DNA of 64,000 bases from Ostreococcus lucimarinus (taxonomy: Eukaryota): NCBI GenBank assembly GCA_000092065.1, contig CP000581.1, one strand, 5' to 3'. The position numbers and the translations under genes are program-made. The notes under the pieces are model-generated. The model saw nothing but the letters and a program-made list of their open reading frames with translations, made no database searches and was not told the origin of the DNA. Numbering within the stretch: position 1 is the stretch's first letter; every line of letters starts with the position of its first letter. Shown here piece by piece: positions 45,839 to 50,198 of this stretch.

Positions 45839-46579
45839 CTAAAGCTTGTCGAGAATGTGCTCGGTGACTTGCTTGCGAGTGTCCTCGGGCGACGTCACGG
45901 TGTGCCCGATCGTCTTCGGAGACTCGAAAATCTCGTGGTCGTTACCGCCCGGGTACGTCTTGTCGCCGAAGAAGTGAATGACGTCGAAGTCGTTCTCCAC
46001 GAATTGCAAGCAGTACGTCTTATCCCATCCCTGCGGGAACACGTCGAACGAAATCTGTCCCCCGATGGAGTACGTCAGCCCGTAATCCGCGAATTCTTTG
46101 CGCAGAGTCTCCACCATCGCCTTGCGCACGCCCGCCTTTTCGTCAAAGCGCTCGAACTCGTCCCGCTCCTCCTGACTGCAATTTCTCCCGATCGGCGACA
46201 CGTTCAGCATCCCCGCCCTGAACTCGATGAACGTCCCCCGCTTCACCGGGACGTCCAAATCCGCCACGTAGTGCAGCACAAAGTTAATAAACCGCTTCAA
46301 CTTGTCCTCGCCCAGAAACGCCTTGAGCGACTGCTTCGCCAGGAGCGCGCCATCCTTGTACGCCACCAGCCCGTTCTCCGAGAACAAGTACGCGTACTCC
46401 CGCTCCACGCCCTCGCCGAGCTGTTCGGAGATCTTCACCAGATCCGACCCGCCCACGATCCCGACCGTCACCCTCGACCGCAGATCCTCCATGAAGCGCT
46501 TCATGACGTCGTCCGCCTCCTTTCGCGGCACCGTCAGCGTGCCGTCGACGTCGAACAGCGCGAGCACGCGCGGCGACAT
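45839..46579 (-). CDS. PMM: Phosphomannomutase (eukaryotic PMM, HAD superfamily)
   Basis: [20 protein letters not shown] (HAD motif I DVDGT) through HILDKL. 246 aa collinear with PMM1/2. The track ORF continues upstream to 47278 through microsatellite DNA. ATG at 46577-46579. Confidence 0.85.
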
Positions 46580-46617
46580 GTCGCGGTGCGTTCGCGCGTT
46601 CGCCGTATCTCTCGCTC

Positions 46618-46666
46618 GCTCGCGTCGCGTCGCGTCGCGTCGCGTCGCGTCGCGTCCACGTGTGCG
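46618..46666. repeat. (CGCGT)n pentanucleotide microsatellite, about 9 units, immediately upstream of the PMM start
   Basis: cgcgtcgcgtcgcgtcgcgt... seen directly. Confidence 0.8.
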
Positions 46667-46740
46667 GCGCGCGGACGGCCGCACCGCACACCGCACGCCG
46701 CACGCCGTCGTCGTCGTCGTCGCCGATCGGTCGCCCGCGC

Positions 46741-46767
46741 GTCGGTCGGTCGGTCGGTCGGTCGGTT
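46741..46767. repeat. (GTCG)n tetranucleotide microsatellite, about 6 units
   Basis: gtcggtcggtcggtcggtcggtcgg. Confidence 0.8.
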
Positions 46768-46800
46768 TCGTTTCCGTCGCGCGCGCGTCGTCGTCGCGGC

Positions 46801-46846
46801 CGCCGGACCGCCGGACCGCCGGACCGCCGGACCGCCGGTCCGCCGG
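46801..46846. repeat. (CCGGACCG)n octamer repeat, 4-5 units
   Basis: ccggaccgccggaccgccggaccgccggaccgccggtccgccgg. Confidence 0.8.
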
Positions 46847-47152
46847 TCGCGCGCGCGGTCGCGTCGGCATCTTGCGCGCCACCGCGCGCGCGTCGACGCG
46901 CGGCGCCTCGGCGAGGTCCCGCGCGCGACGCGGACGCGCGCGCGTCGTCGACGCGCGTCCGACGCGCGCCGTCGCGCCGTCGCGCCGTCGCGCGCGTCGT
47001 CGCCGTCGCCGTCGCGCGCGGCGTCGCCGTCGGCGACCGACCGCGCGTGGTCCGACCGACCGCGCGGATAAGCCGGAAAAACCCACCGACCGAGGGTCGC
47101 GACTCGATCGAGACCCCCTCGGGGTGACGACGTATGCGCGCCAGTGCGAACG

Positions 47153-47162
47153 CATATATACC
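47153..47162 (+). promoter_or_regulatory. TATA-like element (CATATATAC) about 140 bp upstream of the candidate first enolase exon
   Basis: cgcatatatacctccc is isolated AT-rich sequence in a GC-rich region. Position fits a core promoter for a transcript starting before 47299. Confidence 0.3.
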
Positions 47163-47298
47163 TCCCGCGCGCGCCCCACACGGGCGAAACGCGCGCGCAG
47201 TACGCCCCCGCGCGCCGCGGTCGCGCGCGGCGCGTGAGGGCTTGCGCCGGCGCGCCGTCGCGGCGCCCGACGCCGCACACGACGACGCGACGCGCGCG

Positions 47299-47403
47299 AT
47301 GAGCGTTCAGGAGTACATCGAGAAGCACGATCTCACGAAGAAGATCGAGGAGGCGCTCAACGCCGCGGTCAAGGCCAAGGCGGATGAGCCGCTCGCGTTC
47401 GTG
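47299..47403 (+). CDS. Candidate 5' exon encoding a DPY-30/RIIa-like dimerisation-docking motif ([35 protein letters not shown]), proposed to splice onto the enolase exon
   Basis: ATG ORF on the enolase strand. It ends at a donor-like site (ttc gtg|GTGCGCG). An acceptor-like gcgcgcag| sits at 47806-47808, 10 nt before the enolase ATG, and the junction is in-frame. The sequence resembles the DPY-30 motif (xYLxxxVxPxLxxGLxxLAKxRPxxPIxFLAxYL). Confidence 0.35.
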
Positions 47404-47587
47404 GTGCGCGCGACGCGACGCGATTGACGCGCGAACGCGATGGATGCGCGCGACCGCGGCGCGACGTCGAGGGCGAAGGGCGACGCGCGCGAAGGCGCGC
47501 GAAGGCGCGCGAGCGATGCGTTCGATGGCGTGGAAAACGTGCGGGCGAATGGGACGGGACGCGGGATCGGTGCGAGCGCGCGCGCGC

Positions 47588-47597
47588 GGGGGGGGGG
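47588..47597. repeat. G10 homopolymer inside the candidate enolase intron
   Basis: cgcgcgcggggggggggtcg. Confidence 0.7.
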
Positions 47598-47817
47598 TCG
47601 TTACGATCGCGGGAGGCGATCGGGTGTCTGGATAAAAGCGCGCGGCGCGCGCGGGCGATCGCGCTCGCGGAGGGGTGGGCGGGGCGAACGCCGTCGCCGT
47701 TCGGGATCGGGCGTGGAGGATTCGGGCGCGAAGATGCGTCGCGCGGCGACGCGGCGCGACGAAAAGACGATTGACTGACGATTCGACGAATGCTTACGAC
47801 GCGCGCAGAGCGAGTAC

Positions 47818-49137
47818 ATGAAAAAGCGCACGACGCCCGCCATCACGAAGGTCGTCGGTCGCCAAATTTTTGACTCTCGCGGTAACCCGACGGTTGAAGC
47901 CGATGTGTACACGCACAAGGGTATGTTCCGCGCCATGGTGCCGAGTGGTGCGTCCACGGGTATCTACGAAGCCGTGGAACTTCGCGACGGCGGCAAGGAA
48001 TACATGGGCAAGGGCGTCATGCAAGCCGTGAAGAACTTGAACGAAATCATCGCCCCGGCGCTCATCGGCAAGGACCCGCGCGACCAAAAGGCGATCGATG
48101 ATTTCATGTGCAAAGATCTCGACGGTACGGACAACAAGGGCAAGCTCGGCGCCAACGCCGTGCTCGCGGTTTCCATGGCCGTCGCCAAGGCTGGCGCCGC
48201 CGAGAAGGACGTGCCGCTCTACCAACACATCGCCGACCTCGCCGGTAACGGCAAGTTGGTGCTCCCGGTGCCGGCGTTCAACGTCATCAACGGTGGTTCC
48301 CACGCTGGTAACAAGCTCGCCATGCAAGAGTTCATGATCTTGCCGGTCGGGGCTTCCTCCTTCAAGGAGGCGATGCAAATGGGCTCCGAAGTCTACCACA
48401 ACTTGAAGTCGGTCATCAAGAAGAAGTACGGCCAAGATGCGTGCAACGTCGGTGACGAAGGTGGCTTCGCCCCGAACATTCAAGACAACAAGGAAGGTCT
48501 CGACCTCCTCGTTGAAGCGATCGAAAAGGCTGGCTACACCGGTAAGATGAAGATCGGTATGGACGTCGCCGCGTCTGAATTCTTGACCGAAGACAAGTGC
48601 TACGATCTCGACTTCAAGACCGAAGGCAACGACGGTTCCATGAAGAAGACTGGTGCCGAGATGATCGACTTGTACCAAGAGTTCATCAGCGAGTACCCGA
48701 TGATCTCCATCGAGGATCCGTTCGACCAAGACGACGCTGAAAACACCGCCGCGCTCACGGCGAAGAACAACTGCCAAATCGTCGGCGACGACTTGTTGGT
48801 GACCAACCCGAAGCGCGTGCAAGCCGCCATCGACGGCAAGTGGTGCAACGCCCTCTTGCTCAAGGTGAACCAAATCGGCACCATCTCCGAGTCCATCGAG
48901 GCCGTCGGCATGTCCAAGAAGGCTGGCTGGGGTGTCATGGCTTCCCACCGCTCCGGCGAAACCGAAGATTCCTTCATCGCCGATCTCGCCGTGGGCTTGT
49001 CCACCGGTCAAATCAAGACGGGCGCCCCGTGCCGCTCCGAGCGTTTGGCCAAGTACAACCAGCTCTTGCGCATCGAAGAAGAACTCGGTGACAAGGCTGT
49101 CTACGCCGGCGCGTCGTACAAGCACATTGCTTGGTAA
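47818..49137 (+). CDS. ENO: Enolase (2-phospho-D-glycerate hydro-lyase)
   Basis: [27 protein letters not shown], the metal/substrate blocks [14 protein letters not shown] and SHRSGETED, and a C-terminal [13 protein letters not shown]. 439 aa from ATG 47818. Confidence 0.9.
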
Positions 49138-49436
49138 ACGCGCGTTAGGACACGCTCGGCACAATTACGTTTGTGCGCGCGTCGAGCGCCCCAGTCGCTC
49201 GTCGCGCCCCGCGATCGCGCTTTGCTTTGCCTTTGCTTGCATTAGAGCCACACCTTTCATATAATCCAACACAATTAGAAAAGCAACTCTACGCGTCGCC
49301 GTTCCCGAAAACGCGGGGGCAGGGTGCCGTTTTCTGTCCCGATGGAGGCCCCCAAGATGACGTTTCGCCCAATCGCGTCGACGCGACCGCACAGCGCGAC
49401 GCGACCGCGCAGTGCGAAGGCGCGCCGGCGGTGGAA

Positions 49437-50198
49437 ATGTCCTCGCTCGAGCGCGCGTCGCGCTCGAGCGCGCGCGCGGCGTCCGCGCGCGAGGACGCGA
49501 CGCGCGACGTCGCCGCGACGATTCAAGACAAAGATATTTTCGTCAAAGAATCCGCGTCGAAGGCGGCGTCGAACGCGCGCGACGGCGCGCGCGAACGCGA
49601 GTACGCGCGCGCGATGAAAGCAGACGTCGTCTGCGGCGGCGACGGACGCGCGGGAAAGAGTCGAAGCGCGCGCGGACGGGGACGGCGACGCGGCGCGAGG
49701 CGGTTGCTCGACGAGGCGTCGGCGTCGACGTCGCGATCGAGCGATCCCGGCGCGGACGCGCGATCGATGGTGAAGAACGAGGCGTTACTGGCGAGAGAGC
49801 GCGAATGCGCGGTGCGCGACGAGATCTGGGCGACGAGACTCGAGGACGACGAGACGACGGGGTACGACTTCGAAGCCACGCTCGAAGAACTTTGGATGGA
49901 TTGGTGGTGGAAGATGAGTCGAGGCGAGCGTCTGAGCGCGGAAAAGGCGTCCGTGATGGACATGCTGACGGCGATCGTCAACGGCACGAGCTCGAGGGAC
50001 ATCGAAACCGGCGTGCGTCGCGTGAGCGTCGCCGAGGCGTCCGAGTCCTCCGACTGCCCGGTGTGTCTCGAAGACGACGACTCTCGCGCCGACATCGTCC
50101 GACTCACGCGCTGCGAGCACACGTTTCACATCGACTGCATCGCCCCGTGGCTCCAACGACACAAAACCTGCCCGAAATGCCGCGCGCGCGTGCGTTGA
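49437..50198 (+). CDS. RING-H2 zinc-finger protein (probable E3 ubiquitin ligase)
   Basis: C-terminal CPVCLEDDDSRADIVRLTRCEHTFHIDCIAPWLQRHKTCPKCR is a C3H2C3 RING-H2. First ATG at 49437; the track ORF starts on GTG at 49173. Confidence 0.55.
   Translation: MSSLERASRSSARAASAREDATRDVAATIQDKDIFVKESASKAASNARDGAREREYARAMKADVVCGGDGRAGKSRSARGRGRRRGARRLLDEASASTSRSSDPGADARSMVKNEALLARERECAVRDEIWATRLEDDETTGYDFEATLEELWMDWWWKMSRGERLSAEKASVMDMLTAIVNGTSSRDIETGVRRVSVAEASESSDCPVCLEDDDSRADIVRLTRCEHTFHIDCIAPWLQRHKTCPKCRARVR

What the first reader, a model, noticed from the sequence alone, without database searches (positions are those of the whole stretch)
47150..49137. Enolase may carry an upstream exon encoding a DPY-30/RIIa-like docking motif, which would suggest axonemal targeting
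An ATG ORF lies 400-520 bp upstream of the enolase ATG on the same strand. It encodes [35 protein letters not shown]. This resembles the DPY-30/RIIa dimerisation-docking helix pair (…YLxxxVxPxLxxGLxxLAKxRPxDPIxFLAxYL), which tethers enzymes to the flagellar axoneme and other scaffolds. The ORF ends at GTG|GTGCGCG, which matches the donor motif of confirmed introns in this window. An acceptor-like gcgcgcag| lies 10 nt before the enolase ATG and is in-frame with it. A TATA-like element at 47153..47162 sits about 140 bp upstream of the small ORF. If spliced, the roughly 406-bp intron would contain a G10 tract and GC-rich repeats. The product would be a glycolytic enzyme with a built-in axoneme or scaffold docking domain. 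That fits reports of flagellum-localised enolase in green algae.
Basis: inference. Interest (0 to 1): 0.6.

Follow-up and report, generated by a model that had tools for sequence, protein, structure and literature searches.

The report
Enolase with a spliced docking-domain exon
The small upstream ORF is a real first exon that gives this alga's enolase a PKA-type dimerisation/docking domain, but the gene model and the domain are already on record, and the alga (Ostreococcus lucimarinus) has no flagellum for the enzyme to be tethered to.

Summary
Exon 1 (47299-47403, 35 codons) is spliced through a 405-nt GT-AG intron (47404-47808) to exon 2 (47809-49137). Five independent intron-less transcript contigs carry exactly this junction. 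The 477-aa product is identical to the RefSeq protein XP_001415437.1 of Ostreococcus lucimarinus CCE9901.

About 90 orthologous enolases carry the same N-terminal extension. They include green algae, bryophytes, lycophytes, Ginkgo and angiosperm 'cytosolic enolase 3'. Haptophyte fragments and Naegleria enolase carry a related one.

The extension is a D/D (dimerisation/docking) domain of the RIIa clan. Its nearest solved relative outside enolases is the PKA RI-alpha D/D domain. Helix II is complete only after splicing. The window's own copy gets no Pfam hit, but 38 of 73 orthologues hit Dpy-30 and 9 hit RIIa. Dahlin et al. 2021 already list algal enolase as an RI-type D/D protein. In Chlamydomonas the orthologue sits in the C1b projection of the flagellar central pair.

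The exon is nevertheless under purifying selection, as in flagellum-less angiosperms, so a non-axonemal docking or dimerisation role is likely. Verdict: real, well read, already known.

The parts
47153..47162 (+). TATA-like element (CATATATACC) about 140 nt upstream of the start codon. Promoter role unverified.
   Evidence: Present in the sequence. No counterpart within 260 nt upstream of exon 1 in the syntenic relative L007. The transcript contigs do not reach it, so the transcription start is undefined.
47267..47298 (+). Minimum 5' UTR covered by transcript contigs.
   Evidence: L004 aligns from 47267 and L005 from 47286, each preceded by adapter sequence. The 5' ends of L001 and L002 are unrelated AT-rich sequence joined at CGCGCG, which I read as assembly chimeras.
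47299..47403 (+). Exon 1 coding part, 35 codons: [35 protein letters not shown]. It holds the short N-terminal helix, helix I, the loop and the first half of helix II of the D/D domain.
   Evidence: transcripts. (about 90 orthologues). (D/D relationship). (dN 0.08-0.19 with synonymous sites saturated or near 1 against three of four relatives).
47404..47808 (+). Phase-0 GT-AG intron of 405 nt and 73% G+C. Donor GTGCGCG, acceptor GCGCGCAG. It splits helix II of the D/D domain.
   Evidence: Absent from all five transcript contigs. Relatives L007, L009 and L012 have an intron at the same position (396, 367 and 332 nt) with donor GTGCG[TC] and acceptor CAG. The introns do not align with each other. 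No Rfam family was found inside it.
47588..47597 (+). G10 homopolymer inside the intron.
   Evidence: No function indicated.
47809..49137 (+). Exon 2. It begins SEYMKKRT..., which completes helix II of the D/D domain, followed by a linker and the full enolase (Enolase_N and Enolase_C). The stop codon is 49135-49137.
   Evidence: Pfam Enolase_N E=3.5e-56 and Enolase_C E=2.6e-148. The alignment to RI-alpha D/D runs across the exon junction, PLAFV|SEYMKK against [11 protein letters not shown].
49138..49387 (+). 3' UTR, minimum extent.
   Evidence: Transcript contig L001 aligns to 49387 and L003 to 49356. No poly(A) tail is in the contigs.

Best explanation
This is the two-exon enolase gene of Ostreococcus lucimarinus. 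A 35-codon first exon is spliced across a 405-nt intron. Together with the first six or so codons of exon 2, it encodes a roughly 42-residue RI-type D/D domain of the RIIa clan fused to the N-terminus of a complete enolase.

Shown here:
- the splice
- identity of the product with the annotated RefSeq protein
- conservation of the extension across Viridiplantae, with related extensions on haptophyte and Naegleria enolases
- its sequence and predicted-fold relationship to solved D/D domains
- purifying selection on the exon

Inferred by homology: the two N-termini of the enolase homodimer pair into an X-type four-helix bundle, and its groove binds an amphipathic helix of a scaffold protein. In Chlamydomonas the orthologue is part of the CPC1-organised C1b projection of the flagellar central pair, and its N-terminal domain is built in that structure.

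Inferred for this organism: Ostreococcus builds no axoneme, so the domain must be kept for a non-axonemal reason. The most likely reason is docking of the enzyme to some other helix-bearing partner. Reinforcement of the dimer is the alternative. The partner is unknown.
For: Splice:
- Five intron-less contigs from five samples join 47403 to 47809.
- The product is identical to XP_001415437.1.

Orthology:
- 89 of the 120 best hits carry the extension. They include transcriptome-derived sequences and Chlamydomonas, Micromonas, Chloropicon, Coccomyxa, Selaginella, Sphagnum, Marchantia and Ginkgo.
- Angiosperm 'cytosolic enolase 3' and haptophyte fragments also carry it.
- The metatranscriptome protein P0007 reads [13 protein letters not shown] across the junction.

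Gene structure:
- The intron lies at the same phase-0 site in three related genomic contigs.
- Judged from read-through gene models, it also lies there in angiosperms (P0145, P0154).

Domain:
- The orthologue profile hits Chlamydomonas enolase of PDB 7N6G/7SQC (7e-26), AK7 (2e-4), Naegleria enolase 7UGH (4e-4), the PKA RI-alpha D/D domain 2EZW (7e-4), and DPY30 and NME5 (0.03-0.4).
- The single window sequence hits 2EZW at E=0.011.
- Pfam Dpy-30 is hit by 38 of 73 orthologues and RIIa by 9 of 73.
- The AlphaFold2 model has pLDDT 85 with helices 3-9, 12-25 and 31-41.
- The Foldseek top hit is the N-terminus of Chlamydomonas enolase in 7SQC (rmsd 1.7 A over 44 columns). The rest of the list consists mainly of D/D domains.

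Selection: exon 1 has dN 0.08-0.19 against relatives, with dS saturated or about 1 in three of four comparisons, while the introns are unalignable.

Literature:
- Algal enolase is listed as an R1D2 D/D protein (PMC8339350).
- Enolase is a C1b subunit (PMC6548120, PMC9113940).
- Ostreococcus is non-flagellated (PMC6851583).
Against: - The window's own N-terminus gets no Pfam Dpy-30 or RIIa hit even at E<=10.
- It lacks the first of the two loop prolines that Dahlin et al. give as the RI-type hallmark: KAKADEP against the consensus KAKPxEP.
- Individual Foldseek E-values are weak (0.13-9) because the domain is so short.
- dN in exon 1 is 1.5-2 times that of the enolase body. The estimate rests on 35 codons with saturated dS, and the comparison with L012 gives dN close to dS (0.19 vs 0.21).
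- Dimerisation, helix binding and the existence of any partner in Ostreococcus were not and could not be tested here.
- I could not read Gui et al. 2022, so I do not know which central-apparatus helix, if any, the Chlamydomonas domain contacts.
Confidence: 0.85

Rival explanations
1. The domain is an evolutionary leftover in Ostreococcus. It was inherited from flagellate ancestors in which it tethered enolase to the central pair. It now has no docking partner and at most adds a second dimer contact.
For: - Ostreococcus has no flagellum.
- The first loop proline is lost in the window copy.
- The window copy gets no Pfam hit of its own.
- dN in exon 1 is higher than in the enzyme body, and dN is close to dS against L012.
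Against: - dN remains far below the saturated dS in most comparisons, and the reading frame, length and hydrophobic pattern are intact.
- The same extension is kept in other lineages without flagella. These include angiosperm cytosolic enolase 3, and Chloropicon and Coccomyxa (their non-flagellate status is from my own knowledge). That is hard to reconcile with neutral decay.
Confidence: 0.25
2. Two products are made. Besides the spliced 477-aa form, transcripts starting within the intron give a 439-aa enolase from ATG 47818 without the D/D domain, so the docking domain marks only a sub-pool of the enzyme.
For: - An in-frame ATG lies 9 nt into exon 2.
- The intron is long for this genome and G+C-rich like the intergenic DNA.
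- The 439-aa ORF is the form called on hundreds of environmental contigs. That reflects intron-blind gene calling rather than transcripts.
Against: - All five transcript contigs found are spliced.
- The Met is not conserved: Leu in Micromonas (AEYLRK) and in the P0005 group (ADHLRK).
- I did not search for any contig with an intron-internal 5' end.
Confidence: 0.1
3. The extension is an organelle-targeting or signal peptide rather than an interaction domain.
For: It is an N-terminal extension relative to animal, fungal and plant ENO2 enolases.
Against: - It is predicted as three confident helices.
- It is rich in Glu, Asp and Lys rather than Ser, Thr and Arg (visible in the sequence).
- It is conserved at 50-90% identity from algae to seed plants, unlike transit peptides.
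- It is homologous to solved D/D domains.
- It remains on the mature Chlamydomonas protein in the axoneme structure.
Confidence: 0.02

Closest known systems
Chlamydomonas reinhardtii enolase, a subunit of the C1b projection of the flagellar central pair (PDB 7N6G, 7SQC)
   Same: - Same architecture and length (477 aa), about 76% identity over the full length.
- The N-terminal 50 residues align without gaps at E=6.7e-12.
- The predicted fold of the window's domain superposes on the built N-terminus of the Chlamydomonas chain (rmsd 1.7 A).
   Different: Chlamydomonas has a 9+2 axoneme and the CPC1-organised C1b arm that holds the enzyme (PMC9113940). Ostreococcus is non-flagellated (PMC6851583), so that docking site cannot exist here.
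Micromonas commoda enolase (XP_002507278.1), listed by Dahlin et al. 2021 as an R1D2 (RI-type) D/D domain protein
   Same: Closest published case. It belongs to the same order (Mamiellales) and has the same extension. A genomic contig whose protein belongs to the 90%-identity cluster that contains XP_002507278.1 (L012) has the intron at the same site.
   Different: Micromonas is flagellate. Its loop reads KAKAPEP where the window has KAKADEP.
PKA regulatory subunit RI-alpha D/D domain (PDB 2EZW, 3IM3, 3IM4)
   Same: - Best non-enolase sequence match of the window's own domain (E=0.011, residues 4-42, ungapped).
- Shared Y-[IV]-x-K-H-[DN]-[LI] start and P-[LM]-A-F-[VL]-x-E-Y-[MF] in helix II.
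- Same arrangement of a short N-terminal helix followed by a helix-loop-helix.
   Different: - The domain is attached to a glycolytic enzyme, not a cAMP-binding regulator.
- It lacks the two RI-alpha cysteines (my own knowledge of RI-alpha) and the first loop proline.
- AKAP binding is untested.
DPY-30 and Dpy-30-domain proteins (DPY30, AK7, NME5)
   Same: Same clan. The Pfam Dpy-30 model is the one most orthologues hit (38 of 73). Helix II matches AK7 at E=2e-4. Foldseek TM-scores to DPY-30 D/D structures are 0.63-0.67.
   Different: The matches cover mainly helix II (query 20-44), whereas RI-alpha matches the whole domain. Dahlin et al. place DPY-30 as an outgroup to the PKA-R-like set that contains enolase.
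Angiosperm cytosolic enolase 3 (ENO3/ENOC, At2g29560 group)
   Same: - Same N-terminal extension, for example MSVQEYLDKHMLSRKIEDAVNAAVRAKTPDPVLFISNHMRK.
- Apparently the same intron position.
- Also found in organisms without flagella.
   Different: In land plants it is a paralogue beside the housekeeping ENO2. Arabidopsis ENO3 is reported to lack enolase activity (PMC7479207). The Ostreococcus protein keeps the canonical SHRSGETED and other enolase motifs.
Naegleria fowleri enolase (PDB 7UGH)
   Same: This enolase also has an N-terminal extension that matches the profile (E=4e-4).
   Different: It is distant, from Heterolobosea. The crystallised construct is N-terminally truncated, and its authors treated the N-terminus as disordered (PMC11321563).

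Membership tests
Enolase (phosphopyruvate hydratase) | Enolase_N and Enolase_C (TIM barrel) domains, full length | tested here: met
   PF03952 E=3.5e-56 (residues 47-176) and PF00113 E=2.6e-148 (185-473). The SHRSGETED and [11 protein letters not shown] motifs are visible in the translation.
RIIa-clan D/D domain (Pfam Dpy-30 PF05186 / RIIa PF02197) | The sequence itself matches the curated family profile | tested here: not met
   The window's N-terminus as 35 aa, as 49 aa, and within the full protein gets no Dpy-30 or RIIa hit at E<=10.
RIIa-clan D/D domain (Pfam Dpy-30 PF05186 / RIIa PF02197) | Orthologues of the sequence match the family profiles | tested here: met
   Of 73 orthologous extensions, 38 hit Dpy-30 (best E=6.6e-8), 9 hit RIIa (2e-5), 14 hit Tex55 and 15 hit DUF5586. 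P0095 carries a precomputed PF05186 hit.
RIIa-clan D/D domain | Sequence relationship to D/D domains of solved structure | tested here: met
   Orthologue profile: RI-alpha D/D 2EZW 7e-4 over query 6-42, AK7 2e-4, DPY30 0.025-0.17, NME5 0.04-0.4. Single sequence: 2EZW 0.011.
RIIa-clan D/D domain | Helix-loop-helix protomer of about 40 residues | tested here: met
   AlphaFold2 pLDDT 85 with helices 3-9, 12-25 and 31-41. Foldseek neighbours are mainly D/D domains with TM 0.6-0.7, although their E-values are weak.
RIIa-clan D/D domain | Homodimerises into an X-type four-helix bundle | not testable with these tools
   Only monomer prediction is available. This is inferred from homology and from enolase being a homodimer.
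RIIa-clan D/D domain | The groove binds an amphipathic helix of an anchoring protein | not testable with these tools
   No partner is known in Ostreococcus. Binding assays would be needed.
RI-type (R1D2) subgroup of PKA-R-like D/D domains (Dahlin et al. 2021) | [quoted passage not shown] | tested here: not met
   The window has KAKADEP: Ala28 replaces the first Pro, and Pro31 is kept (invariant in the family). The orthologue consensus is KAKPxEP. The hallmark is as stated in PMC8339350.
Axonemal (central-pair C1b) enolase, Chlamydomonas type | Orthologous enolase with the N-terminal D/D domain | tested here: met
   76% identity at 100% coverage to Chlamydomonas-clade enolases. The N-terminus aligns 1-50.
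Axonemal (central-pair C1b) enolase, Chlamydomonas type | The organism builds a 9+2 axoneme with a central apparatus | tested here: not met
   The window is from O. lucimarinus. Ostreococcus is described as non-flagellated (PMC6851583). [quoted passage not shown] This rests on literature, not on a genome search of my own.
Axonemal (central-pair C1b) enolase, Chlamydomonas type | Presence of the C1b scaffold partners (CPC1/SPEF2, FAP42, FAP69, FAP246) | not tested
   I had no query sequences for these proteins and no O. lucimarinus genome search.

The most novel reading that the evidence does not exclude
In a green alga with no flagellum, the RI-type D/D domain on enolase is kept by selection because it docks the enzyme to a non-axonemal, AKAP-like amphipathic helix. 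The same may hold for angiosperm ENO3. If so, the ancient D/D-enolase fusion would have a general role in placing a glycolytic enzyme on a scaffold, and ciliary tethering would be only one use of it.
Probability: 0.35. Interest if true: 0.45.

Novelty: already known. Interest (0 to 1): 0.2.

Why it matters
As a check on the scan, it shows that a reader working from raw sequence predicted a splice to the exact base and recognised a 40-residue interaction domain that Pfam misses on this copy.

Biologically, little is new. The two-exon model is in RefSeq, D/D-bearing enolase of green algae is published, and the Chlamydomonas orthologue has been built into central-apparatus structures.

The one point worth keeping is that organisms that cannot use the docking domain for flagella still retain it under constraint. 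These are Ostreococcus and the angiosperms, and (non-flagellate status from my own knowledge) Chloropicon and Coccomyxa. This suggests an unidentified non-ciliary partner or role for a domain usually discussed only in a ciliary context. It also warns that intron-blind gene callers routinely truncate this protein to 439 aa.

Tried and rejected
- Pfam scan of the 35-aa, 49-aa and full-length sequences for Dpy-30 or RIIa found nothing for the N-terminus. I therefore moved to family-level tests.
- An Rfam scan of 46600-49500, looking for an intron-hosted RNA such as a snoRNA, gave only a sub-threshold mir-2071 hit outside the gene (19.8 bits against a gathering score of 100). I treat it as chance.
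- Aligning the intron with the introns of L007, L009 and L012 gave only short CG-rich matches, so there is no conserved intronic element.
- The TATA-like element has no counterpart in L007 or L008, and the transcript contigs do not reach far enough 5' to define the start site.
- The 5' ends of L001 and L002 looked at first like a further upstream exon. They are unrelated AT-rich sequences joined at CGCGCG and match nothing in the window, so I read them as assembly chimeras.
- I tried to read Gui et al. 2022 (source of 7SQC) to learn what the Chlamydomonas domain contacts. It is not held, and two literature searches for that point found nothing.
- The supplement of Dahlin et al. holds no species list mentioning Ostreococcus.
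- A targeting-peptide reading was rejected on composition, predicted helicity and homology.
- dN/dS on 35 codons is only indicative. NG86 returned undefined dS (saturation) for most pairs.
Full report
**What is in the sequence.**
- An ATG at 47299 opens 35 codons that read [35 protein letters not shown] and end at 47403.
- The following bases are GTGCGCG.
- GCGCGCAG ends at 47808, and the next bases, AGC GAG TAC ATG, are in frame with the 439-codon enolase ORF that the ORF listing reports at 47818-49137.
- Removing 47404-47808 (405 nt, 73% G+C, with a G10 run at 47588-47597) gives a 477-aa protein.
- CATATATACC sits at 47153-47162.
- The gene lies 719 bp from a divergently transcribed phosphomannomutase gene.

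**Is the splice real?** Yes, on three independent lines.
- The 477-aa product is identical, residue for residue, to XP_001415437.1 / ABO93729.1 / A4RQS6 of Ostreococcus lucimarinus CCE9901. This names the organism and shows that the two-exon model is already the reference annotation.
- The exact protein is encoded as one uninterrupted ORF on five short contigs from five different samples (two JGI, three Logan). They match the window at 97-100% identity, with the exon-1 pieces at 97.1-100% and the exon-2 pieces at 99.3-100%. Each reads ...TTCGTG^AGCGAGTACATG..., that is 47403 joined to 47809. Intron-less copies with exact GT-AG excision are best explained as mRNA-derived.
- Genomic contigs from related Mamiellales carry the same exon followed by an intron at the same phase-0 position (396, 367 and 332 nt). 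These are L007, which is syntenic (PMM-enolase-RING-UCH), L009, and L012, whose protein belongs to the 90%-identity cluster that contains Micromonas commoda XP_002507278.1. Their donors are GTGCG[TC] and their acceptors CAG.
- The introns themselves do not align, so the exon is a conserved island.
- The donor heptamer alone would be weak evidence, since it occurs 32 times on this strand of the window.

**The extension across other lineages.**
- Of the 120 best database hits to the spliced protein, 89 distinct N-termini carry MSVQEY[IL]-x-KH-x-L-x-K-x-[VI]E-x-x-[IVL]N-x-x-VK-x-KP-x-EP-x-x-F[MI]A. The spacing to the enolase core is the same in all.
- They include transcriptome-derived sequences of prasinophytes and chlorophytes, and Chlamydomonas, Chloropicon, Coccomyxa, Ostreobium, a pedinophyte, Selaginella, Sphagnum, Marchantia and Ginkgo.
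- The metatranscriptome protein P0007 reads [13 protein letters not shown] across the junction, the same residues as here.
- A second search seeded with the Ginkgo N-terminus found the same extension on angiosperm 'cytosolic enolase 3' (Punica, Acorus, Morella, Cucumis, Castanea and others) and on haptophyte fragments (Prymnesium, Pleurochrysis).
- Two plant gene models (P0145, P0154) read through an intron right after ...PVLFI and resume at SNHMKK, the same site as in this window. The intron therefore seems to predate the split of chlorophytes and land plants.

**What the extension is.**
- Family-level tests say otherwise. Scanned one by one, 38 of 73 orthologous extensions hit Dpy-30 (best E=6.6e-8), 9 hit RIIa, and 14 and 15 hit Tex55 and DUF5586, two further small Pfam families.
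- A profile of the 73 sequences searched against all PDB chains finds the following:
  - Chlamydomonas enolase of the central-apparatus structures 7N6G/7SQC (7e-26)
  - the Dpy-30 domain of AK7 (2e-4)
  - Naegleria fowleri enolase 7UGH (4e-4)
  - the D/D domain of PKA RI-alpha, 2EZW (7e-4, covering query 6-42)
  - DPY30 and NME5, more weakly
- The window's own 50 residues find 2EZW as their best non-enolase hit: E=0.011, ungapped, [39 protein letters not shown] against [39 protein letters not shown].
- That alignment runs across the exon junction, so helix II is complete only in the spliced product.
- AlphaFold2 on the alignment gives pLDDT 85 with helices 3-9, 12-25 and 31-41. Foldseek against the PDB puts the N-terminus of Chlamydomonas enolase in 7SQC first (rmsd 1.7 A over 44 columns). 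After it come mainly D/D domains: axonemal chains, DPY-30 with Ash2L or Bre2, AK7, and RII-alpha with AKAP18. Their TM-scores are 0.6-0.7, but their E-values are weak, as expected for 50 residues.
- The domain is thus an RIIa-clan D/D domain nearest to the RI type.
- One RI hallmark named by Dahlin et al., a proline at each end of the inter-helix loop, is only half met here: KAKADEP against the family consensus KAKPxEP.

**What is already published.**
- Dahlin et al. 2021 (PMC8339350) list enolase, using the Micromonas commoda sequence, among PKA-R-like D/D proteins of the R1D2 clade. [quoted passage not shown]
- In Chlamydomonas, enolase is a subunit of the C1b projection of the central pair, organised by CPC1 with FAP42, FAP246 and HSP70A. 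It is thought to support local ATP supply (PMC6548120, PMC9113940, PMC7999657).

**Why the axonemal conclusion does not transfer.**
- Ostreococcus is non-flagellated (PMC6851583).
- Even so, exon 1 is not decaying. Against four relatives, dN is 0.08-0.19, while synonymous sites are saturated or near 1 in three of the four comparisons. For the enolase body, dN is 0.09-0.10 and dS about 0.7. Against L012, dN and dS are about equal (0.19 and 0.21). The sample is only 35 codons, so this is indicative.
- Angiosperms, which have no flagella at all, keep the extension on ENO3, a cytosolic paralogue reported to lack enolase activity (PMC7479207).
- I infer that the domain has a use outside the axoneme. 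Docking to another amphipathic helix is the most likely. A second dimer clamp is the main alternative.
- Nothing here identifies a partner.

**Mechanism: shown and inferred.**
- Shown: the gene structure, the splice, the protein's identity with the annotation, its conservation, its homology and predicted fold, and the constraint on the exon.
- Inferred from homology: dimerisation into a four-helix bundle and helix binding.
- Inferred from organismal biology: a non-axonemal role in this species.
- Not excluded: a minor D/D-less isoform from ATG 47818. That Met is not conserved (Leu in Micromonas) and every transcript found is spliced.

**Verdict.** The feature is already known. Interest is low, apart from the open question of what a docking domain on enolase does in cells without flagella.

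Noticed in passing
window 46800-46850: Tandem run of the octamer CCGCCGGA (about five copies, then CCGCCGGT variants). Further short GC-rich repeats (GTCGCGCC, CGTCGC) extend to about 47040. All lie in the 719-bp divergent intergenic region between the phosphomannomutase and enolase genes.
   Followed up: no
window 45839-46579 (-) and 49173-50198 (+); L007 1-6320: The neighbours are a phosphomannomutase gene (247 aa, minus strand, start codon at 46579) and, by synteny with L007, a RING-finger ORF downstream. The order PMM-enolase-RING-UCH is the same on the environmental contig L007, which marks that contig as a close relative.
   Followed up: partly
P0145 and P0154 (angiosperm fragments): Two plant gene models read through an intron immediately after ...PVLFI and resume at SNHMKK. 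This is the same phase-0 site inside helix II as the Ostreococcus intron, which suggests that the intron predates the chlorophyte-streptophyte split.
   Followed up: partly
L001 1-101, L002 1-100, L004 1-32, L005 1-19: The 5' ends of the transcript contigs are not genomic. L001 and L002 carry unrelated AT-rich sequence joined at CGCGCG, which I read as assembly chimeras. L004 and L005 start with Nextera adapter remnants (AGATGTGTATAAGAGACAG). They cannot be used to place the transcription start.
   Followed up: yes
cluster of the window's protein: P0121, P0123, P0124 and others: Intron-blind gene calling on environmental contigs reports this enolase as 439-440 aa (481 contigs) or as 612-614-aa read-through products. 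Only the RefSeq and transcript-derived entries have the true 477-aa form. One cluster member of 394 aa is labelled 'ubiquitin C-terminal hydrolase', probably a name carried over from the neighbouring gene.
   Followed up: no
P0056 (376 aa, ENA contig of 22.8 kb): Roughly the first hundred residues resemble the Micromonas enolase. From about [17 protein letters not shown] onward the protein looks identical to the O. lucimarinus sequence by eye. It is either a chimeric metagenome assembly or an unsampled Ostreococcus lineage.
   Followed up: no
PDB 7UGH (Naegleria fowleri enolase); P0162 and P0174 (haptophytes): Enolases outside the green lineage also carry an N-terminal extension that matches the profile. 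The Naegleria crystallography paper treated that region as disordered and truncated it, apparently without recognising a D/D domain.
   Followed up: partly
window 46654-46703 (-): Sub-threshold Rfam match to mir-2071 (19.8 bits against a gathering score of 100, E=0.39) in GC-rich intergenic DNA. Almost certainly chance.
   Followed up: no
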